Notes under the pieces: generated by a model
What the model saw: the letters and a program-made list of their open reading frames with translations, nothing else
Told to the model about the DNA's origin: nothing
The model's database searches: none
Assembly: GCA_039024555.1 (NCBI GenBank)
Contig: JBCCQQ010000056.1
Location: 1-41,749 of the forward strand
DNA from: Cyanobacteria bacterium P01_D01_bin.156
GTDB lineage: Bacteria; Cyanobacteriota; Cyanobacteriia; Phormidesmidales; Phormidesmidaceae
DNA length: 41,749 nucleotides
Direction: 5' to 3'
Position numbers and translations under genes: made by a program
Part shown: piece by piece, positions 1,419 to 30,056 of the stretch
Numbering within the stretch: the first letter of the stretch is position 1
Layout: the number at the start of each line of letters is the position of its first letter

Positions 1419-4400
1419 ATGGCGTCCAATTTCGATTTCCTCAGCAACCGCTATCCCACCCTTCACGAGCATGCCACCCATGCCGAGCGGTTGATCCTCT
1501 CTGCCCCCCGTGCCAGCTGCTTCTATAGTCGCTTCACCCTAGAGCAAGCGGTCCAATGGCTCTATGCCAACGACCCATACCTGAGGCTGCCCTACGCCAA
1601 CAGCCTGGGCGCACTGATCCACGAGCAAACCTTTAAAGAAAACCTCAAACCCGGACTCTTCCCAAAAATCCGTACCGTCCACAAAGTGGGCAACCTGGCT
1701 GTCCACGACTCCAGCAAAATTAGTCAGAGAGACGCCCTGCGAGTCGTTGAGGAGCTGTTTCATTGCCTCTACTGGCTGTGTCGCTACTACGCGCCAGACG
1801 GCAAAAATCTAGGCACCCTTACCTTTGACCGCAACCTAATCCCCAAACCAGCTGACGACCAGGCTGACCTTACCCTAAAGCAGCTGCAAGAACTCGAATC
1901 GCGCCTATCCCTGGCCGATGAAATGCGGCAAATCGCTGAAGCCAAGCGACAGCAGACCGAGCAGGAGCTGGCAAACCTCAAAGCCGAACTGGATGCCCTT
2001 AAACAGTCCAACGAAGCCGCTGACGACACCCACGACTACAACGAAGCCGACACCCGCCATTACCTAATCGATGTCCTGCTCAAAGAAGCAGGCTGGGACA
2101 TTCACCAGGATGGCTGGACCGAGGTGGAAGTCAAGGGCATGCCCCCAGCCACAAACCCCACCGGCACTGGCTATGTGGATTATGTTCTGTGGGGTGACGA
2201 CGGTAAACCCCTGGCCCTGGTGGAAGCCAAACGCACCAATCGCAACCCCGTAGAAGGGAAACGCCAGGCCGAACTCTACGCCAACTGCCTGGAGCAGCGC
2301 TATAGCCAGCGACCGGTCATTTTCTATAGCAACGGCTACGAAACCTGGATTTGGGATGATGCCACCTATCCTCCGCGAGCCATCCAAGGCTTTCTAAAAA
2401 AAGACGAACTGGAGCGCTTGATCTTTCGCCGTACCCATCGCAAACGGCTGCATCTGGTGCAGGTTAACTCAGCCATTGTGGATCGCTCCTACCAAACTGA
2501 AGCCATCCGCCGTATTACCGAAACCTTTGACCAGGAACGGGGGCGCAAGTCTCTGTTGGTGATGGCCACCGGTACTGGTAAAACCCGAACTGCGATCGCC
2601 CTGGTGGATGTCTTAATGCGAGCCAACTGGGTCAAGCGCACCCTATTCCTGGCGGATCGCAATGCCTTACTCACCCAGGCGCTACGGGCCTTTAAGCGCA
2701 ATCTGCCTACGGTGACGCCTATTGACCTCACCAAGGACAAGGTGGCCGATAGTGCCAATGTGGTGCTCTCCACCTACCCAACGATGCTCAACGCCATCGA
2801 CCGGGTAGCAGAAGCAGAACGGTTCTTTGGTCCTGGCCATTTCGACCTGGTGCTCGTCGATGAAGCCCACCGCTCCATTTACAAAAAGTACCGTGCCCTA
2901 TTTGACTACTTTGACTCCCTATTGGTAGGCCTGACTGCCACTCCCCGCGCTGAGGTAGACCGCGACACCTATCGCATCTTTGAGCTGGAGCAGGGCAATC
3001 CGTCCTTTGCCTACGAGTTAGACGATGCCATCAAAGACGGCTACCTGGTGCCACCCAAGGGGGTGGACGTGCCATTTAAATTCATGCGTAAGGGCGTCAA
3101 GTTCTCAGAGCTATCTCCCGAGGAGCAAGCCGAATACGAAGAAAAATTCCAAGACGAGGAAACCGGAGTCGTCCCAGACCAGGTGAATGCAGCCGCCCTT
3201 AACCGATGGCTGTTCAATATCAGCACCGTTGACCAGGCGCTGCAGTTGATGATGGAGCAAGGCATCAAAATTGACGGGGGCGATCGCTTAGGTAAGACCA
3301 TCATCTTTGCCCGCAACCATAACCACGCCGAATTTATCGTCGAGCGCTTCGATGCCAACTATCCCAAGTTCAAAGGCAAATTCGCCCAGGTGATCGACAG
3401 CCATGACAACTATGCCCAGAGCCTGCTCGATGACTTCTCAGACCCGGCCAAGGAACCCACCATCGCCGTCTCGGTAGACATGCTCGATACTGGCGTGGAT
3501 GTACCTGAGGTGGTCAATCTGGTGTTTTTTAAGCCGGTCTATTCACTGGTGAAATTCAACCAGATGATTGGACGAGGTACCCGCCTCTGTAAGAACCTGT
3601 TCGGCCTGGGTGAGCATAAAACCGAGTTCCTCGTATTTGACCTCTGTGGCAACCTGGAATACTTCAACCAGCCCATCGAAGAGAAGAATCAAAAGCTTCC
3701 CGATAGTCTCTCCACCCGACTGGTTAAAACCCGCCTGGAATTGGCCCAGACATTGGGGACAAAGAACAGTGCTGATACGGGGGACTTACGACAGAACCTG
3801 CTGGATACCCTTCATCAGCATGTAGCCACCATGGAACCGGATAACTTCCTGGTGCGCTCTCACTTAAAACAGGTGGAAGACTTTTCCAACCGAGAACGCT
3901 GGGATCAGCTCAGCGAGGAAGACACCGAAATAATAGCGGATAACCTGGCCTCTTTACCCAACAGCATCCCCAGCGAAGACCGATTTGCCAAAGAATTCGA
4001 CCTCCTCTGCTTGAAACTCCAGCTAGCTGTGCTCAAACAGTCTGCCGACTTTATCCGCCTGCGGGATAAGGTGCGAGACCTGATGGCCAAGCTGGAAGAC
4101 AAGAAAACCATCCCCATGGTCCAGGCACAGCTCACCCTGATCGAGGAAATTCAACCTGAGGACTGGTGGACCAACGTCACCCCCGCCATGATTGAGCATG
4201 TTCGCTGCAGTCTACGGGACCTGATCAAGTTCATCGATCGCCAGTCCCAGACCATCGTCTACACCAACTTTGCCGACCAAATGGGCCGGGTCAAAGAAGC
4301 TGAGGTGCCTGTCTATCAGCCTGGCTTTAGCCCGTATCAGTATCGAAAGAAGGTTGAAACCTATATTCGGGCAAATGAAAATCATGTTGCGATCGCCAAG

Positions 4401-4820
4401 CTCAAGCGCAATCTGCCCCTGACTGAGCCCGATTTAGAAGCCTTGGAAACCATGCTGTTCGGTGCTGAGGAAATCGAAAGCCGGAAGCGGTTTGAGGAGG
4501 TCTACGGCAAAGACCTGAGCTTGAAGCTGTTTATACGGAAGCTGGTGGGTTGCGATCGCAATGCCGCTAAAGAAGCCTTTTCCAACTACCTGGTGGGTAA
4601 TAGCATGAGTGCTAACCAGATCCGCTTTATCGAAAATATAATCGACTACCTGACCCAGAACGGTGTCATGGATCCTGGCCTACTTTACGAGCCACCCTTC
4701 ACCGAGCTGCATGATGAGGGGCTAGATGGCATTTTTCAAGACAATGACGCAGATCAAATTATCAACATTGTTCATTCATTTAACAAAACCGTAGAGGCAA
4801 ACTTTGAAGTTGCGTCGTAA
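1419..4820 (+). CDS. hsdR: Type I restriction-modification system restriction subunit R (EcoKI/EcoEI-like, with DUF4145-like N-terminus)
   Basis: 1133 aa. PD-(D/E)xK nuclease motif YVDYVL...LVEAKR, Walker A MATGTGKT, DEAH box (DEAHRS), LTATP, MLDTGVDVP, QMIGRGTRL and an EcoEI-R-type C-terminus. RBS GGGGAG lies upstream. Confidence 0.93.
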   Translation: MASNFDFLSNRYPTLHEHATHAERLILSAPRASCFYSRFTLEQAVQWLYANDPYLRLPYANSLGALIHEQTFKENLKPGLFPKIRTVHKVGNLAVHDSSKISQRDALRVVEELFHCLYWLCRYYAPDGKNLGTLTFDRNLIPKPADDQADLTLKQLQELESRLSLADEMRQIAEAKRQQTEQELANLKAELDALKQSNEAADDTHDYNEADTRHYLIDVLLKEAGWDIHQDGWTEVEVKGMPPATNPTGTGYVDYVLWGDDGKPLALVEAKRTNRNPVEGKRQAELYANCLEQRYSQRPVIFYSNGYETWIWDDATYPPRAIQGFLKKDELERLIFRRTHRKRLHLVQVNSAIVDRSYQTEAIRRITETFDQERGRKSLLVMATGTGKTRTAIALVDVLMRANWVKRTLFLADRNALLTQALRAFKRNLPTVTPIDLTKDKVADSANVVLSTYPTMLNAIDRVAEAERFFGPGHFDLVLVDEAHRSIYKKYRALFDYFDSLLVGLTATPRAEVDRDTYRIFELEQGNPSFAYELDDAIKDGYLVPPKGVDVPFKFMRKGVKFSELSPEEQAEYEEKFQDEETGVVPDQVNAAALNRWLFNISTVDQALQLMMEQGIKIDGGDRLGKTIIFARNHNHAEFIVERFDANYPKFKGKFAQVIDSHDNYAQSLLDDFSDPAKEPTIAVSVDMLDTGVDVPEVVNLVFFKPVYSLVKFNQMIGRGTRLCKNLFGLGEHKTEFLVFDLCGNLEYFNQPIEEKNQKLPDSLSTRLVKTRLELAQTLGTKNSADTGDLRQNLLDTLHQHVATMEPDNFLVRSHLKQVEDFSNRERWDQLSEEDTEIIADNLASLPNSIPSEDRFAKEFDLLCLKLQLAVLKQSADFIRLRDKVRDLMAKLEDKKTIPMVQAQLTLIEEIQPEDWWTNVTPAMIEHVRCSLRDLIKFIDRQSQTIVYTNFADQMGRVKEAEVPVYQPGFSPYQYRKKVETYIRANENHVAIAKLKRNLPLTEPDLEALETMLFGAEEIESRKRFEEVYGKDLSLKLFIRKLVGCDRNAAKEAFSNYLVGNSMSANQIRFIENIIDYLTQNGVMDPGLLYEPPFTELHDEGLDGIFQDNDADQIINIVHSFNKTVEANFEVAS

Positions 4821-21657: not shown

Positions 21658-21951
21658 CTAACTTTTGGGAGCCCGACCAACCTTACCGCCTGCTCCACCT
21701 TTGAGTCCCCAGGATGGGGTTGATCCCTTGCCTTGGGTCTTGCAAAATGAGCCTTGGAATCGGGAGGGATCGCCAAAGGCAAGCTGAGGTTGTTCGATCC
21801 TGGTTTCGTTGGGTTCTTGAACAAAGCCGAGGGCCTGCAATGCTTTGGATGTCCAGGGTTTACCCATAAACATAAACATACCGGGAGAGTTGGAAACAGT
21901 GAGATAGAGATGGCATCGGCGTTTGGTGTGCCAAAAACGTTGTTGTTTCAT
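21658..21951 (-). CDS. Possible small basic hypothetical protein (97 aa)
   Basis: ATG at 21951 (MKQQRFWHTKRRCH...), open to 21658. No recognisable motif. Confidence 0.35.
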   Translation of the reverse strand: MKQQRFWHTKRRCHLYLTVSNSPGMFMFMGKPWTSKALQALGFVQEPNETRIEQPQLAFGDPSRFQGSFCKTQGKGSTPSWGLKGGAGGKVGRAPKS

Positions 21952-22171
21952 GACAGTTCGCGGGATGTGTAAGAGAACAGAAAGCTTACAGGGGCTGGCT
22001 GCGGATTTACCCTGTCTTGACCGCAAGTTAGTACACAGCGCTAGCTATTGCTTACCCAGATAAGGGCCAGCAATCAACAATAGACAAATTTTTCTTGATG
22101 AATTAGGTAAGTAGACTGAACCATATTCTAGATATGGAGACTTCCAACCATTCCCAAAGATTGGGGGAAGC

Positions 22172-23306: not shown

Positions 23307-24548
23307 ATGAGTGTCAATATCTTTTTTTCGTATGCCCGCAAAGATAAAGACCTTAGAGATGAACTTGCAAAACATTTAAAGATTCTTGAGCGTCAGGACA
23401 TCATTGAAACGTGGCACGACCAGGATATTGATGCTGGGGCAGAACGTTCTGCTGAAATTGATAAGCAATTAGATTCGGCCGATATTATTTTGCTCCTTAT
23501 CAGCTCTGATTTTGTAGCTTCAGACTACTGCTATGACGTAGAACTTAAACGTGCTCTTGAAAGGAATGACAAGGGCGAAGCTAAAGTAATTCCAGTGATT
23601 GTGCGTCCGATTGATTTAGAAGGCACTCCTTTCAGCAAGCTGCAATCTTTACCACAGGACGCGAAACCCATTACTGAATGGGAAAATCGAGATAAGGCTT
23701 TTCTCAATATTGTTCAGGGTATCCGTCGTAGCATAGAGGACCTTGCTAATTTTCAGCAGCAAAAGCAAGTACGCCTCTACGGTTCCTTACTGAAGTTGGG
23801 CTATCGGCAGCAGTCCAGACTTTTTCGGCGAGCCATAGATTCTGAATCAGTGGCTGGCTTTTTAATTCATGGTTTGCCTGAATATGGTCAACGCTGGCTC
23901 TTAAATAGATTGGTCGTGCAATATCTACCAGAGCATTTGAATAGCAAAGTCGTCAAAGTTAACCTAGGCCGATTGGCTAGGCAAACCAATGTAGCTGCAC
24001 TCTGGCGGGAATTGGGTGGGCGAGTAAAAAAAAATCGAGGGCATAAGCTGACACCACCTGAAATTGCAGATGGTGTTTACCGCTGGTGGCTGACTCAGGA
24101 TGTGATTTTGGTATTTCATGATGTCCAAGCACTACCTGAGTCAGCCGCACAAGAAATGATTGAGCAGTTTTGGAAACCTTTGACTAAGAGAGTTCAGGAA
24201 GCATCTGACGGTGAAAGTGCATGCAAATTGCTGATGTTTTTAGTGGACTACGTAGGCAAATCAGAGCAATGGAAATTGCCCTTTGTCGAGAAATTAGACG
24301 CTGGATGGAAACCACAAAAGCCTATTAAGACGCCGAAAATTCAGGAATTTACTGATAAAGATTTAATGGATTGGCTGGATGACCAATTTCGCGACTTACC
24401 TTCGGATTTGACCCAGGGTATTGATGATAAGGTTGAGGAAATCTTGGAAAGTAGTGAGGGGGGGATTCCTGAGCTTGCTCTGCGTGAAATTTGTGACCAA
24501 TGTGGACTTGATTGGTATGAGGAGTTGGATAAGTGGTTACGGCTTTAG
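23307..24548 (+). CDS. TIR domain plus inactive STAND (iSTAND-like) protein
   Basis: N-terminal TIR (IFFSYARKD...WHD.DI.AG...SDYCYDVEL with the conserved Glu). The C-terminal P-loop-like region has a degenerate Walker A (FLIHGLPEYGQRWLLNRL, Gln for Lys) and Walker B-like VILVFHDV. Confidence 0.8.
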   Translation: MSVNIFFSYARKDKDLRDELAKHLKILERQDIIETWHDQDIDAGAERSAEIDKQLDSADIILLLISSDFVASDYCYDVELKRALERNDKGEAKVIPVIVRPIDLEGTPFSKLQSLPQDAKPITEWENRDKAFLNIVQGIRRSIEDLANFQQQKQVRLYGSLLKLGYRQQSRLFRRAIDSESVAGFLIHGLPEYGQRWLLNRLVVQYLPEHLNSKVVKVNLGRLARQTNVAALWRELGGRVKKNRGHKLTPPEIADGVYRWWLTQDVILVFHDVQALPESAAQEMIEQFWKPLTKRVQEASDGESACKLLMFLVDYVGKSEQWKLPFVEKLDAGWKPQKPIKTPKIQEFTDKDLMDWLDDQFRDLPSDLTQGIDDKVEEILESSEGGIPELALREICDQCGLDWYEELDKWLRL

Positions 24549-25468
24549 ATTCAGAACTGACGTATACCGGCAAAAAGCAGCCTAAGCCTGGAGAACGTGA
24601 CCCTAAAACTCACCGTCCTTTAACACCCTATCTGCCTAGCGAAGAGCTAGTTGAGGTTGTAAACCTTGCTATTTATTTAGAGCGTCCGCTTTTATTAAAA
24701 GGGGAACCAGGTTGTGGCAAAACTCGTTTGGCCAGAGCAGTTGCTTATGAGCTAGGTCTACCCTTTGAAGCTTGGTATGTTAAATCAACCAGCCAAGCTC
24801 AAGATGGGCTTTACAGATATGATACTGTTGGTCGCTTAAGAGATGCTCAGCTCGCTGCAAATCAGCTCATAAAACCTGAAGAGCTATCGCGTATTAGCGA
24901 CCCAATGACTTACATTAAGTGGGGACCGCTAGGAAAAGCGTTTCAATCTGAACAACGAGCTGTTGTATTGATTGATGAAATCGACAAAGCTGATATTGAT
25001 TTCCCAAATGATTTGCTACTAGAACTAGACGAGTTGCGCTTTGTAGTGGAAGAACTGGAACAGCAAGAAATAGCAGCTCGGTTTCCACCAATTGTTTTTA
25101 TCACCAGTAACGATGAGAAGGATTTGCCAGATGCCTTTCTACGTCGTTGTTTATTCCATTACGTTAAGTTTCCTGATCATGAGCAATTAGTCATGATTTT
25201 GCAGGGTATGTTTCCAAAAACGTCAATGAAACTCACTCAGAAAGCTGTAGATAGGTTTCTGGAACTACGACACGAAATGAGTAAAACACGAGGAGTTGCT
25301 ACCAAAAAGTCTAGTACCAGTGAGTTGATTGATTGGTTTCGAGTACTACAACGTTTTCCTGAGGATGAAGCTCTTTCGAAACTTAAAGGCCAATTACCTT
25401 TTGGTAGTGTCCTAGTCAAAAGTTGGGAAGACCATCAGCGATATCTTCAGCAAACTACGTCAAACTAA
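24533..25468 (+). CDS. MoxR-family AAA+ ATPase
   Basis: RPLLLKGEPGCGKT, Y.YD..GRLRD, VLIDEIDKAD.DFPNDLL and ITSN.EKDLPDAFLRRC. The GTG start overlaps the end of the upstream gene. Confidence 0.93.
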   Translation: MVTALDSELTYTGKKQPKPGERDPKTHRPLTPYLPSEELVEVVNLAIYLERPLLLKGEPGCGKTRLARAVAYELGLPFEAWYVKSTSQAQDGLYRYDTVGRLRDAQLAANQLIKPEELSRISDPMTYIKWGPLGKAFQSEQRAVVLIDEIDKADIDFPNDLLLELDELRFVVEELEQQEIAARFPPIVFITSNDEKDLPDAFLRRCLFHYVKFPDHEQLVMILQGMFPKTSMKLTQKAVDRFLELRHEMSKTRGVATKKSSTSELIDWFRVLQRFPEDEALSKLKGQLPFGSVLVKSWEDHQRYLQQTTSN

Positions 25469-25470
25469 CA

Positions 25471-26931
25471 ATGCAAGCTGAGGAATTACCACTATTTGAA
25501 CTCTATACCCGTTTACAAGAGGCAGGGCTACCACTTGGCTTAAATGAATATACACAACTTCTAAAAGCCCTACAGGGAGGCTTTGGCTTGCCCGACCGTC
25601 AAGCACTTTCACATTTATGTTGTACTTTATGGGTTAAAAATGAGGAAGAAGAACATATTTTTAACTATCATTTTGCTGAGGTCATAGGAGTTAAACCTAC
25701 TTCCTACAAAGATATTGCTGAAACAAGTGCGCAAAAATCAACTCTTTATCAAGAAATCACGTCTGCTCAAAACATTACAGTTCAAACAAATCGGAAACTA
25801 CTAATTGGGATATTTGTTTTGTTAGTAGTATTTCTAGCAACCTTAGGTGGATTGAAGTTTTTATCAGGCACCCCAGAAAACGAAAGCCCACCATCAGAGT
25901 CTCCTAATCCGACAGTACCAACAGAAATAGAAGGCGAATTTATCCCTGGCCAACCACTTCCTAATGCGCCTGAGGATCTTGAAATAGAGTCCATGGAACT
26001 TCCTAAGATACCAATTACATTTTTGAGTTCCTTAGTAGGTTTAATGTTGTTGAGTAGTACTGTTTCATGGTTTTTCATTCGTCAAATAACTGTTACGCAA
26101 ACTGTGCTCCCAACTGAAGATTTCGATGATTTTACAATTCAAGATTCTGTTTCAAAAACTGAGATTTTTACAGCAGGCAATGATGAAGTTCAGCTAGCTG
26201 AAACAATCCGAAAAACAAATAAAGAGAAGGCAAGTTTTTCTAAAGAGAAGGTAATAGGTCAAGATGAATATTTTCCATTAACCAGACGCCAGATGAAACA
26301 AGGTTGGCGATATCTTCGACAAAATAAACGTGAAGGACCGAAGACAGAATTCGATCTTGATGAGACAGTTAGTCAGATTGCTCGCCAGGGTTCATTTTTA
26401 AGACCTATCATGAAGTCAGCTCGCAGCAGTCGTACTGACCTAATACTTTTAATTGATCAAGATGGCTCTATGATTCCATTTCAGGCACTAGCCAAACGTT
26501 TGGTTGAGACTGCAACACGAGCAGGACGTTTAGGCAATGCTGACACCTACTATTTTCACAACTGTCCAACAAACCATCTGTATCATAACCCTACGATGCA
26601 AAATGCAGAACCTTTAATCAACTTTCTAAGCAGACGTTTATCACCCAAATCAATAATTGTTATTATGAGTGATGCAGGAGCTGCCAGAGGAGGATTGAGT
26701 ACTGCCCGCATAAAGAGAACTAAGGAGTTCATAGGGCAGATTAATCAGTATGCTCGCTACATTGTTTGGCTCAATCCTGTTCCTAGAAATCGTTGGGAAC
26801 TGACTACGGCTGGTGAACTTTCCAAGCTTGTTCCTATGTTTGAGATAAATCGAGCTGGGTTTCACGATGCAGTAGATGTACTGCGAGGTCGATGGAAGCC
26901 AAGTTTAGAAAATCTAAGAACTACGCTATGA
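25471..26931 (+). CDS. vWA-domain (CoxE-like) MoxR partner with an inserted two-TM segment
   Basis: ATG 2 bp after the MoxR stop. N-terminal helical LPLG..EY..L..AL..GFG...LW, two hydrophobic helices, MKQGWRYLR, MIDAS-like LLIDQDGSM.PF, SDAGAARG and WLNP.P..RW..TTA. Confidence 0.85.
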   Translation: MQAEELPLFELYTRLQEAGLPLGLNEYTQLLKALQGGFGLPDRQALSHLCCTLWVKNEEEEHIFNYHFAEVIGVKPTSYKDIAETSAQKSTLYQEITSAQNITVQTNRKLLIGIFVLLVVFLATLGGLKFLSGTPENESPPSESPNPTVPTEIEGEFIPGQPLPNAPEDLEIESMELPKIPITFLSSLVGLMLLSSTVSWFFIRQITVTQTVLPTEDFDDFTIQDSVSKTEIFTAGNDEVQLAETIRKTNKEKASFSKEKVIGQDEYFPLTRRQMKQGWRYLRQNKREGPKTEFDLDETVSQIARQGSFLRPIMKSARSSRTDLILLIDQDGSMIPFQALAKRLVETATRAGRLGNADTYYFHNCPTNHLYHNPTMQNAEPLINFLSRRLSPKSIIVIMSDAGAARGGLSTARIKRTKEFIGQINQYARYIVWLNPVPRNRWELTTAGELSKLVPMFEINRAGFHDAVDVLRGRWKPSLENLRTTL

Positions 26932-28934
26932 CCGGTACACTTACAAACCTCTTAGAAATAACCAGCAAAATCAATCTTCCTACAGTGGAAGCTTTTGTTA
27001 AACGCCATGGAGAAGCTCATTTCCTATTCGCTTGTCATGCAGCTTTGCCTTTAGGACTTACCCCTGAGCTTTTGTACAAGCTATGGGCTAATTTCCAAGT
27101 AGATTGTCGTGGCAAACAACTTGGCATTCCTTGGATCGCTACATCAGACTTATTGCTCTCTAATTTATGTGAGGAGGTTGGAGATGGACTATATGAAATG
27201 AACTCTTTAGTAAGAGAGGCGCTATTAGATTTTTTAGAGAATCATGAATGTCTTAACCTAAAACGTATTCAAGAATTAGCCGCGTTTATGGCTACGCATG
27301 TTCAATCACAGCTGAAGAGTGAGAATCTAGATATCCAAGATTTTGCTAAAGCGCAGAACTGGTTATCTATAGCCTATTTGCAACCTGAAAAAGCTGTAAA
27401 AGAATTGGCTGCTAACCTTGCAGACGCTTTCCAGGAAAAGTCAGATGACTTGTTGCGTATTGCCTCAATTGTAAGGGCATTGGAAAGACCCCTAATTAAC
27501 TATCCTGACTTGTTGACTTATGCCCGTGGGATGGAAAACTATGCGCAAGGAAACATTGAAGATGCCCAAAAAGAGTTTGATAAGATTCGACAATCGAATA
27601 ACTTGCATCATTCTTTGAATAAGGGGCTTCCTCTACCACATAGTTCCTCCCAAAAAGTTCAAATTGAGCAACGAAATAAACAGATAAACCTTCCCTTAAC
27701 AGCTCAAATACTAGCCTCAATTACATTGGGGAGTGTAATTAGTGGAAGCTTTTGGCTGCTTCAGATACAACGACCTATTGAAGCCGTTCTAACGGAACCA
27801 TCTATAATTGCATCAACAGATTTAGATGATTCGAGTAAAGTCACAACAGCAATTCATGAAGGGTTAACTACATCAGAGGCACCGTTTCTTGAAAATGCTG
27901 AAAAAATCTCGGCTCCTCCAAAACCTCAGATAGAGCCTCAAAACGAAGTCGTTAAGCAAGATAAACCTCTTAAAGAATCTCAAGATGAAGTTATCGACCA
28001 AGAAATACCTTCTGAAGAGCCTGATGAAATCACGACTTCTTCACAAACTCAAGTAGAGTCTCAGGATGGAGTTATTAACAGTGAAATATCTCTTCCGGAA
28101 TCTGATGATGAAGTTAATAACTCTCAACCCATATTAGAATCTCAAGATAGAGAATCTTCAGGAGAGACCTCAACGTTTACATCCACTCAGCTTTCCTCTA
28201 ATGATGTTGAGGGTAATCCGGGAATCAACAATGCAGATAACGATATTGACAACGGAGCATTACCATCTGATGAAACTGCTGAATCTGTTCCTTCTCAGAA
28301 CACGCAAAGTTTTGGGGATGATAATTCTTTTCCTAATGAATCTAGAGCTCCTAACCCTATTTCTGGTGGTTTCAGTTTAGTTGCTTTGACTAATTCGACA
28401 GGCGGTAACCTTGATGAAAATTTGCAAATCAGAATTCCTCGACATGATGATAGCAGTCCTTTATTTCTCATGCGTGAACTAAGTGCACGTTACCAATTAG
28501 ATGAGGTTCCATTCACTATCCAAGATAATTTTCATACCTATAGTTTGCCAACTCGTAGCTTGGTCCAACTTGGTGTTAATAACATTAACCAGTTACGACC
28601 ACTTGCATTTACCAATTCTCCCCAGCGCATAGCTGTACCAACCATCCTAGGACAAGCCTCCGATAGCTATCGTTTCATTTTCCATAGCAGTGCTCCTTCT
28701 AGATTTTTAGAGGTTTCCATCCGAAGTAATGATGACGGTAGAATTTATGTAACCGAGAGATCTCAAACACTCCAAACAGGGGAGTATATCTTCGTGTGGC
28801 CAGGAGTTAGATCTTTCCCTGCTGGTCGTTATACATTCTCCTATAAAGTCGAAGTCGAAATGGAGAGAAACAGCTCACCAATACGTATTGCTCGTAGCTT
28901 TATTTTTGAACATGATCCAAGCTTGCTTAGATAG
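26928..28934 (+). CDS. Membrane-anchored hypothetical protein: conserved helical N-terminal domain, TM, acidic repeat linker and C-terminal beta-rich (Ig/FlgD-like) domain
   Basis: ATGA overlap with the vWA stop. N-terminus FACHAALPL.LTP.LLY.LWANF...W.A..DLLLS.LC.EVG..LYEM, a TPR-like helix, TM ILASITLGSVISGSFWLL, ESQDEVI-type repeats and a C-terminal FVWPG...PAGRYTF. Confidence 0.75.
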   Translation: MTGTLTNLLEITSKINLPTVEAFVKRHGEAHFLFACHAALPLGLTPELLYKLWANFQVDCRGKQLGIPWIATSDLLLSNLCEEVGDGLYEMNSLVREALLDFLENHECLNLKRIQELAAFMATHVQSQLKSENLDIQDFAKAQNWLSIAYLQPEKAVKELAANLADAFQEKSDDLLRIASIVRALERPLINYPDLLTYARGMENYAQGNIEDAQKEFDKIRQSNNLHHSLNKGLPLPHSSSQKVQIEQRNKQINLPLTAQILASITLGSVISGSFWLLQIQRPIEAVLTEPSIIASTDLDDSSKVTTAIHEGLTTSEAPFLENAEKISAPPKPQIEPQNEVVKQDKPLKESQDEVIDQEIPSEEPDEITTSSQTQVESQDGVINSEISLPESDDEVNNSQPILESQDRESSGETSTFTSTQLSSNDVEGNPGINNADNDIDNGALPSDETAESVPSQNTQSFGDDNSFPNESRAPNPISGGFSLVALTNSTGGNLDENLQIRIPRHDDSSPLFLMRELSARYQLDEVPFTIQDNFHTYSLPTRSLVQLGVNNINQLRPLAFTNSPQRIAVPTILGQASDSYRFIFHSSAPSRFLEVSIRSNDDGRIYVTERSQTLQTGEYIFVWPGVRSFPAGRYTFSYKVEVEMERNSSPIRIARSFIFEHDPSLLR

Positions 28935-28970
28935 ATAAAAGCTAGACAGATGCTTCTTCCCAAGATACAA

Positions 28971-30056
28971 CTAATGTTTCACGGAGACAATTGTTTCCAC
29001 GACTCGCCGAATCCCCTGCACCACATTCAAAAACGCCTCATCCTGGTCATTCCATCGGGTAATCGGTTTCGCATCCTTAGGCAATGCCTGTAACTTCTCC
29101 AACGGTGTTCCCTTAAAGTCTACCGGTTTCAAAATAATCGGGATCACCCTTGCCGTTCCAGTTTTGTGGCGTTCCATGGCATGGGCCAGCTCAATGTCAT
29201 TGATATAATCCGACGCCATAAATCGAGGCGTTACCAACAATAAAATTATTTGAGCCTTTTCCAACGCAGTTTTGATTTTATCGTCCCATTCTGTTCCTGC
29301 TTCAATGGAACGATCCTGCCAGGGTTTAATCTTGTTCTGTCGCTTTAGCGTCGATAGATGAACCTCTAGTTCTTCCTTGAGCTCCTCATCTCGATGGGAG
29401 TAGGAAATAAACACATTTAAGGGCTGATTGGGGTTGGTTCCACTTTTTTTACTCACGGGTGACGGCTGGCTGGTTGAAGTACTCGTCGCCCTAGATGGGG
29501 CGTCACTTTGCAACAATATGGGCAAATCTTCATCCCCGGCTCCACTCAAAGCCATGGCGGATTTGCCCAGTTCAAAGGCAAACTCCACAGATTCTCCATT
29601 CCCCAAGGCATCGTAAAAGCCCACTGAAAATTCAATGGCAGCGCGATCGTTTACGCTATCCTGCATACCGATAACGTAGGGAATATGAGCCGAAATAGCC
29701 TCTGCCTGAGCTTCGGAGTAGCAGCCATTCAACACCACACAGGTTACCTGGGCCTTGAACAGCTTAAACAAATTGGCCAGGGCGTCTCCGGTAATTAGTT
29801 GGGCATTGCCGACATTGTCCTCAAAATATAAGCCCGCTGCCCCTTCTCCATGGCCGGAAAAATGAACAATCTGCGGTTTTTCATCCAGCATGGCCCGCTG
29901 AAGATCGCGGGGGCGCACAGCCCAGCGCTGGGTAATGGCAAATTCATCCCGATGCTTAGCCCGTTCTAGACCGGCACTGATATCTCGGACTTCTTCGTCT
30001 AAACGTAACCGTGTAGTACCGTTAGGATTGGCCGCAAGAATCAGGATTTTAGGCAT
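28971..30056 (-). CDS. CHAT (caspase-like) peptidase plus C-terminal TIR domain protein
   Basis: Likely ATG at 30056 (MPKILILAANP). The CHAT dyad IVHFSGHG / VLNGCYS is intact. An S/T/P linker leads to a TIR, VFISYSHRD...ASDYINDIEL. Confidence 0.9.
   Translation of the reverse strand: MPKILILAANPNGTTRLRLDEEVRDISAGLERAKHRDEFAITQRWAVRPRDLQRAMLDEKPQIVHFSGHGEGAAGLYFEDNVGNAQLITGDALANLFKLFKAQVTCVVLNGCYSEAQAEAISAHIPYVIGMQDSVNDRAAIEFSVGFYDALGNGESVEFAFELGKSAMALSGAGDEDLPILLQSDAPSRATSTSTSQPSPVSKKSGTNPNQPLNVFISYSHRDEELKEELEVHLSTLKRQNKIKPWQDRSIEAGTEWDDKIKTALEKAQIILLLVTPRFMASDYINDIELAHAMERHKTGTARVIPIILKPVDFKGTPLEKLQALPKDAKPITRWNDQDEAFLNVVQGIRRVVETIVSVKH

What the first reader, a model, noticed from the sequence alone, without database searches (positions are those of the whole stretch)
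23307..30056. Five-gene candidate conflict/immune system: TIR-iSTAND, MoxR AAA+, membrane-embedded vWA, membrane-anchored receptor-like protein, and convergent CHAT-TIR
Seen: four tightly coupled + strand genes (16-bp overlap, 2-bp gap, ATGA overlap) converge with a 36-bp gap on a CHAT-TIR gene. The block looks AT-richer than its neighbours and has no HIP1 site. Established: MoxR plus vWA plus an inactive STAND protein carrying an effector domain is the layout of the iSTAND-type NTP-dependent ternary conflict systems predicted computationally by the Aravind group in multicellular bacteria, including filamentous cyanobacteria. To my knowledge they are largely untested experimentally. Inference: this is a membrane-anchored variant. 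An extracytoplasmic domain senses envelope attack or non-self contact, the MoxR/vWA chaperone remodels the iSTAND protein, and a TIR (NADase or adaptor) plus a caspase-like protease are released to kill or arrest the cell. The class is known, but I do not recognise this full architecture as described.
Basis: partly seen in the sequence, partly recalled or inferred. Interest (0 to 1): 0.85.

Follow-up and report, generated by a model that had tools for sequence, protein, structure and literature searches.

The report
Membrane iSTAND system beside orphan effector
Four linked cyanobacterial genes are a new member of a predicted but untested immune-like machine, with a swappable tip likely facing outside the cell, while the fifth gene is an older resident of the site and likely the leftover front half of a different, frameshift-linked sensor gene.

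Summary
All five genes and their junctions are real. Genes 1-4 (TIR-iSTAND, MoxR, two-helix vWA, vWA-linker/TM/tip) are an iSTAND ternary system. TIR fusion, membrane anchoring and the separate linker gene are already in Kaur 2020/2021. New here is the tip, an Ig-like beta-sandwich taken from an uncharacterised, signal-peptide-bearing protein family. Two congeners carry a WD40 propeller instead.

Gene 5 (CHAT-TIR) is probably not a dedicated member. It has genome-like GC and full-length orthologues in 12 of 21 congeners, only 2 of which carry the cassette. Its TIR is not a cognate copy of gene 1's. In 7 of the other 10 it precedes an NB-ARC ORF that is always in the -1 frame. A slip-like stop-plus-hairpin motif joins effectors to STAND ORFs in 10 of 10 matches; it is lost in this window.

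Recruitment of gene 5 by TIR-TIR pairing remains possible, because related systems attach peptidases to iSTAND. The scan has noted iSTAND systems and frameshift-linked CHAT-TIR before, on other DNA. No function is shown.

The parts
23307..24548 (+). g1, TIR-iSTAND (413 aa). TIR at about 1-150 with the putative catalytic Glu79 kept. Inactive STAND module: Walker A remnant GLPEYGQR at 189 without Lys, Walker B remnant FHDVQ at 270.
   Evidence: Pfam TIR_2 and PF19995; motifs; the Lys is missing throughout a 30-row alignment. That Glu79 is catalytic is inferred from recalled TIR knowledge.
24533..25468 (+). g2, MoxR-type AAA+ ATPase (311 aa) with intact Walker A (57), Walker B (147), sensor-I Asn and Arg finger (FLRR 202)
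   Evidence: Pfam AAA_5/AAA; motifs; the only MoxR of this type in the genome
25471..26931 (+). g3, vWA component (486 aa): N-terminal helical domain, TM1 (~111-129), a 49-aa acidic Pro-rich loop, TM2 (~181-203), then a CoxE-type vWA with MIDAS-like DQDGS (329) and SDAG (400). The vWA likely faces the cytoplasm.
   Evidence: The loop has 0 K/R and 11 D/E. In 3 relatives it is replaced by WD40 propellers.
26928..27632 (+). g4 N-terminal helical domain (aa 1-235), inferred to be the vWA-L linker of Kaur 2021
   Evidence: It heads the gene after vWA in 28 distinct related proteins and is fused to many different C-termini. The Atlas structure hit (TM 0.76) is to an FGS cluster in which 13% of members carry VWA_CoxE. 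No vWA-L profile was available, so the name is inferred.
27633..28373 (+). g4 weak TM segment (~253-281) and an acidic, Ser/Pro-rich stalk of about 200 aa
   Evidence: Hydropathy 1.53 here; 1.23-2.14 in 11 close homologues and 1.66-2.36 in 10 related loci
28374..28934 (+). g4 tip (aa 483-668): Ig-like beta-sandwich captured from a family of ~240-aa stand-alone proteins with signal-peptide-like N-termini; likely periplasmic
   Evidence: 73 homologues, 57 with an N-terminal hydrophobic peak. AF2 pLDDT 96.8. VIA best Z 7.1, generic Ig/FnIII sandwiches. Atlas FlgD-Ig lead 0.85. No stand-alone copy in the genome.
28971..30056 (-). g5, CHAT-TIR (361 aa) with His69/Cys112 and TIR Glu289 kept. A resident gene of the acrB-por site and the orphaned 5' half of a CHAT-TIR / NB-ARC-WD40 pair. 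The slip-like end motif and hairpin of its orthologues are absent here.
   Evidence: CHAT similar to PDB 8tl0, E 3e-15

Best explanation
Genes 1-4 encode an iSTAND-type MoxR-vWA ternary system that is likely anchored in the inner membrane and likely senses a cue at the envelope through a swappable Ig-like tip on gene 4, then is predicted to use MoxR ATP hydrolysis to switch on the NAD+-cleaving TIR of gene 1, while gene 5 is an older resident and likely not a dedicated member. Steps. (1) Shown: the domains, intact MoxR, MIDAS-like and TIR motifs, the dead STAND P-loop, and tip and distal-cassette exchange at one orthologous site. (2) Inferred from hydropathy, charge bias and signal-peptide homologues: the g3 vWA and g4 linker face the cytoplasm, and the g4 tip faces the periplasm. 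(3) Inferred from known MoxR/vWA couples: the g4 linker docks on g3, and binding at the tip changes that complex so the MoxR ring remodels or releases TIR-iSTAND. (4) Inferred: clustered TIR then depletes NAD+ or makes an ADPR-type signal and arrests the cell. The cue is unknown; phage adsorption, a predator or epibiont, and non-self contact are all candidates.
For: Membership features met. The tip is the variable part. Two congeners with the same five genes at the same por-acrB site have WD40 tips. Related g4 proteins end in FGS, SLH, PG-binding, peptidase C39, POTRA, VanY, trypsin, GUN4, Macro, SAVED, FHA or pentapeptide domains. Among 12 closest g4 homologues only 2 pairs share a C-terminus. 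g1 is 86-93% identical to both congeners, like por (92%), whereas MoxR, vWA and linker are 81%, 58-63% and 62%; the congeners are 93%, 80% and 88% to each other. So the distal block was exchanged behind a constant TIR-iSTAND. For g5 being separate: GC3; 12 of 21 congeners have it but 2 have the cassette; it stands without the cassette at 6 fully read sites; the g1 and g5 TIRs sit in different clades at 51% identity. An actinobacterial MoxR/vWA pathway with surface propeller sensors is reported as required for responses to an epibiont (bioRxiv 10.64898/2026.09.08.750141, passages).
Against: There is no expression, binding or phenotype evidence. The g4 TM is weak (1.53). Many related tips are cytoplasmic (GUN4, Macro, SAVED, FHA), so the variable position is not always an outside sensor. 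Kaur 2020 reads the vWA-linked domains as effectors and the third component as sensor. Kaur 2021 proposes that iSTAND binds nucleic acid. In related systems a peptidase nearly always accompanies iSTAND, which favours a role for g5.
Confidence: 0.5

Rival explanations
1. Five-gene system (first reader, refined). The resident CHAT-TIR has been co-opted: its TIR pairs with the TIR on iSTAND as EAD adaptors do in sister systems, or an ADPR-type signal from g1 activates the protease as in type IV Thoeris.
For: A peptidase is fused to iSTAND in 11 related loci: trypsin in L018, L020, L022, L023, L027, L061, L064, L070; CHAT or caspase in L069, L034, L035. In 8 more it is attached through a shared small coil domain (L019, L025, L028, L030, L062, L063, L065, L066). 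The in-locus pair was the best match in 7 of 8 loci tested. Those CHATs are 49-66% identical to g5's. L075 fuses a CHAT-TIR 82-83% identical to g5 to a vWA-linker protein of a MoxR-vWA operon. All 3 genomes with the cassette at this site keep g5 intact.
Against: g5 is also intact where both NB-ARC and cassette are missing (L042, L043). The two TIRs are not cognate copies, and an own-genome TIR on contig C39 is closer to g1 (56% vs 51%). Two other genomes with TIR-iSTAND systems show no full-length CHAT-TIR with this query (G200, 100% complete; G548). The three co-occurrences are one inherited event. Transcription is convergent.
Confidence: 0.22
2. Inside-out model (Kaur et al.). iSTAND senses an intracellular invader such as nucleic acid, TIR makes the signal, and MoxR/vWA then deploys g4, whose tip acts as an effector or decoy at the envelope.
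For: This is the published model. Cytoplasmic enzymatic or binding tips occur in relatives.
Against: g1 is the most conserved part (90-92% in iSTAND), which is unexpected for an invader-recognising surface. The tip shows no enzymatic fold match. There is no peptidase in g1-g4 to release it.
Confidence: 0.18
3. Not a defence system: an envelope-stress or cell-contact signalling and assembly chaperone, or a decaying cassette.
For: Most characterised MoxR/vWA pairs are assembly chaperones. No PADLOC model covers g3 or g4.
Against: Patchy presence (3 of 22 genus genomes at this site), low GC, tip exchange and a TIR with its Glu kept fit conflict genes. All four frames are intact.
Confidence: 0.1

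Closest known systems
iSTAND MoxR-vWA ternary systems (Kaur, Burroughs, Iyer, Aravind, eLife 2020, PMC7159879; split vWA-L form in eLife 2021, PMC8195603)
   Same: Order iSTAND > MoxR > vWA > linker-effector; TIR on iSTAND; TM segments in the vWA protein; a TM-preceded variable C-terminal domain; cyanobacterial host.
   Different: The tip is an Ig-like domain from an uncharacterised exported family, not among the domains named in the passages read (PEGA, OmpA, PASTA, Sel1, FGS). The 2020 source-data list was too large to read and may hold this locus type.
DGR-linked ternary sensors (Dore et al., PNAS 2024, PMC10907252)
   Same: [quoted passage not shown]
   Different: VMAP-type systems with hypermutated C-lectin domains. 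Here variation is by whole-domain exchange.
Esr pathway of oral Actinobacteria (bioRxiv 10.64898/2026.09.08.750141)
   Same: Surface sensor plus MoxR/vWA, with experimental support for threat sensing (passages only).
   Different: Beta-propeller sensor with kinase/FHA output to Esx secretion; no iSTAND or TIR in the passages read.
Type IV Thoeris, TIR-caspase (bioRxiv 10.1101/2024.10.24.620036, abstract)
   Same: TIR plus a caspase-fold protease, as in g5 or g1+g5.
   Different: There they are two stand-alone proteins coupled by N7-cADPR. g5 is a CHAT-TIR fusion tied to an NB-ARC gene.
APAF-1-like NB-ARC-WD40 STAND proteins; dnaX/IS-type -1 frameshifting (recalled)
   Same: g5 orthologues precede an NB-ARC/APAF1_C/WD40 ORF. 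Two of them end in A_AAA_AAG.
   Different: Most use C_CCT followed directly by a stop and a GC stem. That partner and signal are absent from this window.

Membership tests
iSTAND ternary system | Third component with an inactive STAND module | tested here: met
   PF19995 1.3e-28, cutoff 24 bits, score 100.9; Walker A Lys absent
iSTAND ternary system | MoxR AAA+ with intact motifs and no VMAP-type N-terminal extension, directly after the third gene | tested here: met
   311 aa, Walker A at residue 57, Arg finger present
iSTAND ternary system | CoxE-type vWA with an N-terminal helical domain and two MIDAS aspartates | tested here: met
   VWA_CoxE 1.4e-11; D329 invariant and D401 at least 90% conserved in 33 rows
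iSTAND ternary system | vWA-L linker followed by a variable C-terminal domain, fused or as a separate gene | tested here: met
   Conserved helical domain with variable tips in the same gene position. The name vWA-L is inferred from position, since no profile was available.
iSTAND ternary system | N-terminal TIR, peptidase or EAD on iSTAND | tested here: met
   TIR_2 8.2e-17
iSTAND ternary system | The components form a complex and act in conflict | not testable with these tools
EAD-type adaptor pair (g1 TIR / g5 TIR) | The two copies in a locus are closer to each other than to other copies | tested here: not met
   51% identity, separate clades; 14 other TIRs among 34 rows exceed 52% identity to g1 or lie closer
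Five-gene system including CHAT-TIR | g5 co-occurs specifically with the cassette | tested here: not met
   10 of 12 congeners with g5 lack the cassette with this query (4 are 65-75% complete; 6 sites were read flank to flank); not found in 2 of 2 outside TIR-iSTAND genomes
Type IV Thoeris | TIR makes N7-cADPR that activates the caspase-like protease | not testable with these tools
   Catalytic residues are present; the product is unknown
Programmed -1 frameshift (g5 orthologues) | Conserved -1 overlap, slip-prone codon at the stop, and a 3' structure | tested here: met
   7 of 7 orthologue-NB-ARC pairs in the genus; 10 of 10 motif matches; not present in the window copy
Programmed -1 frameshift (g5 orthologues) | Covarying stem and a trans-frame product | tested here: inconclusive
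   8 of 10 pairs never vary and 1 has a two-sided change; an in-frame TIR-NB-ARC homologue exists (L093); no ribosome or proteomic data

The most novel reading that the evidence does not exclude
The site records a rewiring of bacterial innate immunity. A caspase-TIR effector that relatives make both free and, by a portable stop-codon -1 slip signal, fused to an APAF-1-like sensor has lost that sensor. It has been plugged by TIR-TIR pairing into an incoming membrane iSTAND machine whose outside tip is swapped from ordinary exported proteins.
Probability: 0.2. Interest if true: 0.72.

Novelty: new member of a known kind. Interest (0 to 1): 0.4.

Why it matters
iSTAND ternary systems remain predictions: no experimental test appeared in searches. 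This locus offers a natural swap series at one site, with a near-constant TIR-iSTAND and an Ig-like versus WD40 tip. That allows a direct test of whether the variable domain is the sensor or the effector, on which published models disagree. The side finding is a short motif that puts NB-ARC ORFs in the -1 frame behind CHAT-TIR, TIR or trypsin ORFs in two families. It would mean some bacterial NLR-like genes set their effector-to-sensor ratio by recoding and are mis-annotated as two genes. Paper searches listed no paper on this; the scan's own notes had raised it on other DNA.

Tried and rejected
HIP1 absence as evidence of foreign DNA: 5.4% of genome windows do the same.

Single-sequence folding of the tip failed (pLDDT 41) and was redone with a 55-row alignment. 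Foldseek gave no match at E <= 0.001. VIA gave only generic sandwiches (Z <= 7.1), so no specific family or ligand is named. The iSTAND profile has no solved relative.

No Rfam match. Promoter and terminator counts were below shuffled levels. No RNA holder was listed among sequencing runs, which says nothing on expression. Complex prediction (iSTAND + vWA + linker) was not available, so binding is untested.

P0102 was first read as an in-frame CHAT-TIR-NB-ARC fusion; it is linker-NB-ARC-CHAT-TIR. L060 and L017 end too soon downstream to exclude a convergent CHAT-TIR, so their whole genomes were searched instead. The slip motif as a repeat element was rejected: it is single-copy in each matching genome and absent from the own genome. 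L019 and L068 are the same locus and were counted once.
Full report
Observation. The five ORFs and four junctions are exactly as reported, and Pfam confirms the domain calls: TIR + iSTAND, AAA_5, VWA_CoxE, no family for g4, and CHAT + TIR. The window is contig C56 of a 6.6-Mb cyanobacterial genome. One of its two closest loci is from Leptolyngbya sp. Heron Island J. The low GC covers g1-g4 only (0.41, lowest 2% of windows); g5 looks native (GC3 0.51). HIP1 absence is seen in 5.4% of equal windows.

Core system. g1 keeps the TIR Glu and has lost the Walker A Lys. g2 has full ATPase motifs, and g3 has both MIDAS-type aspartates. g3 has two hydrophobic helices around a 49-aa loop with no K/R, so the loop is likely outside and the vWA inside. 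In three relatives the loop holds WD40 propellers. g4 starts with a conserved helical domain that follows the vWA gene throughout the related loci; I infer it is the vWA-L linker. A weak but conserved TM segment, an acidic stalk and a 186-aa tip follow. The tip matches 73 proteins, mostly about 240 aa and stand-alone, of which 57 have a signal-peptide-like start. It folds confidently (pLDDT 96.8) as an Ig-like sandwich with no specific structural relative. This supports a periplasmic tip captured from an exported protein.

Variation. The same five genes lie between por and the g5-acrB side in two congeners (acrB itself is seen in one, L016), but their tips are WD40 propellers. g1 is 86-93% identical to them, like por, while MoxR, vWA and linker fall to 81%, about 60% and 62%. 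The congeners stay at 93%, 80% and 88% to each other, and DNA identity drops from about position 24,600 onwards. The distal block was therefore likely exchanged behind a constant TIR-iSTAND. Tips in other relatives include FGS, SLH, PG-binding, C39, POTRA, trypsin, GUN4, Macro, SAVED and FHA.

Gene 5, evidence against membership. Full-length orthologues occur in 12 of 21 other genus genomes; the cassette's iSTAND occurs at 90% or more in 2. Six sites read from g5 to por lack the cassette, and three sites lack both. In 7 of the 10 cassette-free orthologues g5 is followed on the same strand by an NB-ARC ORF, APAF-1-like with WD40 where complete. Two have lost it and one is broken at a contig end. 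The g1 and g5 TIRs are 51% identical and in separate clades of a 34-row tree. Two other genomes with TIR-iSTAND systems gave no full-length CHAT-TIR with this query.

Gene 5, evidence for a role. Related iSTAND proteins carry a peptidase by fusion (11 loci, one of them CHAT) or through a shared small adaptor (8 loci), and the adaptor's best match was its own neighbour in 7 of 8 loci tested. A CHAT-TIR 82-83% identical to g5 is fused to a linker protein in a metagenomic MoxR-vWA operon. Recruitment is thus plausible but not shown; I put it at about 0.2.

The frameshift link. In 7 of 7 orthologue/NB-ARC pairs the NB-ARC ORF is in the -1 frame and open across the g5 stop, with no conserved start before its P-loop. 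Five end in C_CCT then a stop, followed by a stem of -15.6 to -24.6 kcal/mol (z -1.2 to -3.4); two end in A_AAA_AAG then a stop. A pattern built from these and two further homology-found loci matched 9 of 173 family genomes and 3 of 401 class genomes, one of them new, always in single copy. The reversed control matched 0 and 1. All 10 distinct matches end an effector ORF (CHAT-TIR, TIR-X or trypsin-X) and open a P-loop STAND ORF in the -1 frame. Three of them were not used to build the pattern, and all 3 fit. An in-frame TIR-NB-ARC homologue exists (L093). Against: the stem is invariant rather than covarying, kin are not independent, and no product was observed. I rate programmed recoding at about 0.65. 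The window copy has lost both partner and signal.

Mechanism. Most likely the tip binds an envelope cue, the membrane g3/g4 pair passes the change to the MoxR ring, and ATP-driven remodelling clusters TIR-iSTAND so that NAD+ is cleaved and the cell arrests. Domains, motifs and exchange are shown. Topology is inferred from sequence. Complex formation, direction of signal and outcome are inferred from family knowledge and are untested. Rivals are the five-gene model, the published inside-out model and a non-defence role.

Literature seen. PMC7159879: outline, parts 2-3 of the main section and passages; its source-data PDF was too large to read and may list this locus type. PMC8195603: passages and a search of 12 of 13 supplements, which show TIR+iSTAND2 and vWA-L+TM architectures. 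PMC10907252, bioRxiv 2026.09.08.750141 and bioRxiv 2025.12.03.692087: passages; the last has no mention of MoxR, iSTAND or vWA in its main text. bioRxiv 2024.10.24.620036: abstract. Searches listed no experimental test of an iSTAND system and no paper on this frameshift; subscription papers are largely outside the library.

Verdict. This is a real, intact new member of a described but untested class, four genes rather than five, with a new tip domain. The scan holds 95 earlier notes with the words iSTAND, MoxR and vWA and several on frameshift-linked CHAT-TIR or NLR genes, which I read after finding the link. Interest 0.4.

Noticed in passing
L040:3745-3800, L041, L046, L048, L049, L092, L098, L099, L106, L108 (ends of effector ORFs): Portable candidate -1 recoding cassette (C_CCT, stop, 2 nt, GC stem) joining CHAT-TIR, TIR-X or trypsin-X ORFs to NB-ARC-WD40 or NB-ARC-TPR ORFs in five genera of two families. 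L044 and L045 use A_AAA_AAG in the same frame.
   Followed up: partly
L075:2391-7974: MoxR-vWA operon with an EAD1 third gene and a linker-NB-ARC-CHAT-TIR protein whose CHAT and TIR are 82-83% identical to g5.
   Followed up: partly
L062:4520-7501, L063:4586-7342, L069:8316-11654: vWA proteins whose loop between the two TM helices is expanded into 500-700 aa of WD40 propeller, paired with multi-TM pentapeptide linker proteins. L069 has a direct CHAT-iSTAND fusion.
   Followed up: partly
P0029-P0101: Uncharacterised family of ~240-aa exported proteins with a conserved Cys pair region and an Ig-like fold. The two members scanned had no Pfam match. It is the source of the g4 tip.
   Followed up: partly
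L040:6794-10006, L041:3661-6594, L042, L043, L045: A DUF4347...DUF4114 gene of about 1000 aa occupies the cassette's place in five congeners; the por-acrB interval is a variable site.
   Followed up: partly
window 21658-21961 (-): Short ORF upstream of por, conserved at 76-82% DNA identity across the genus; the orthologue scanned had no Pfam match.
   Followed up: no
G000 C39:15778-18402, C136:782-1975, C60:1025-2353, C31:4-2334, C70:2300-4741, C66:2498-4681: The own genome holds further TIR or CHAT proteins of the same families (by eye: TIR-NTPase-TPR, TIR-FGS, TIR-GUN4, LRR-ROC-TIR, CHAT-TIR-AAA). They are possible partners of g1 or g5 in trans.
   Followed up: no
window 1419-4820 (+): Type I restriction enzyme R subunit (HsdR, EcoEI-like with DUF4145) near the contig start.
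   Followed up: no
L060:6839-9268: A TrwC relaxase gene lies directly upstream of a TIR-iSTAND system, suggesting carriage on a mobile element.
   Followed up: no
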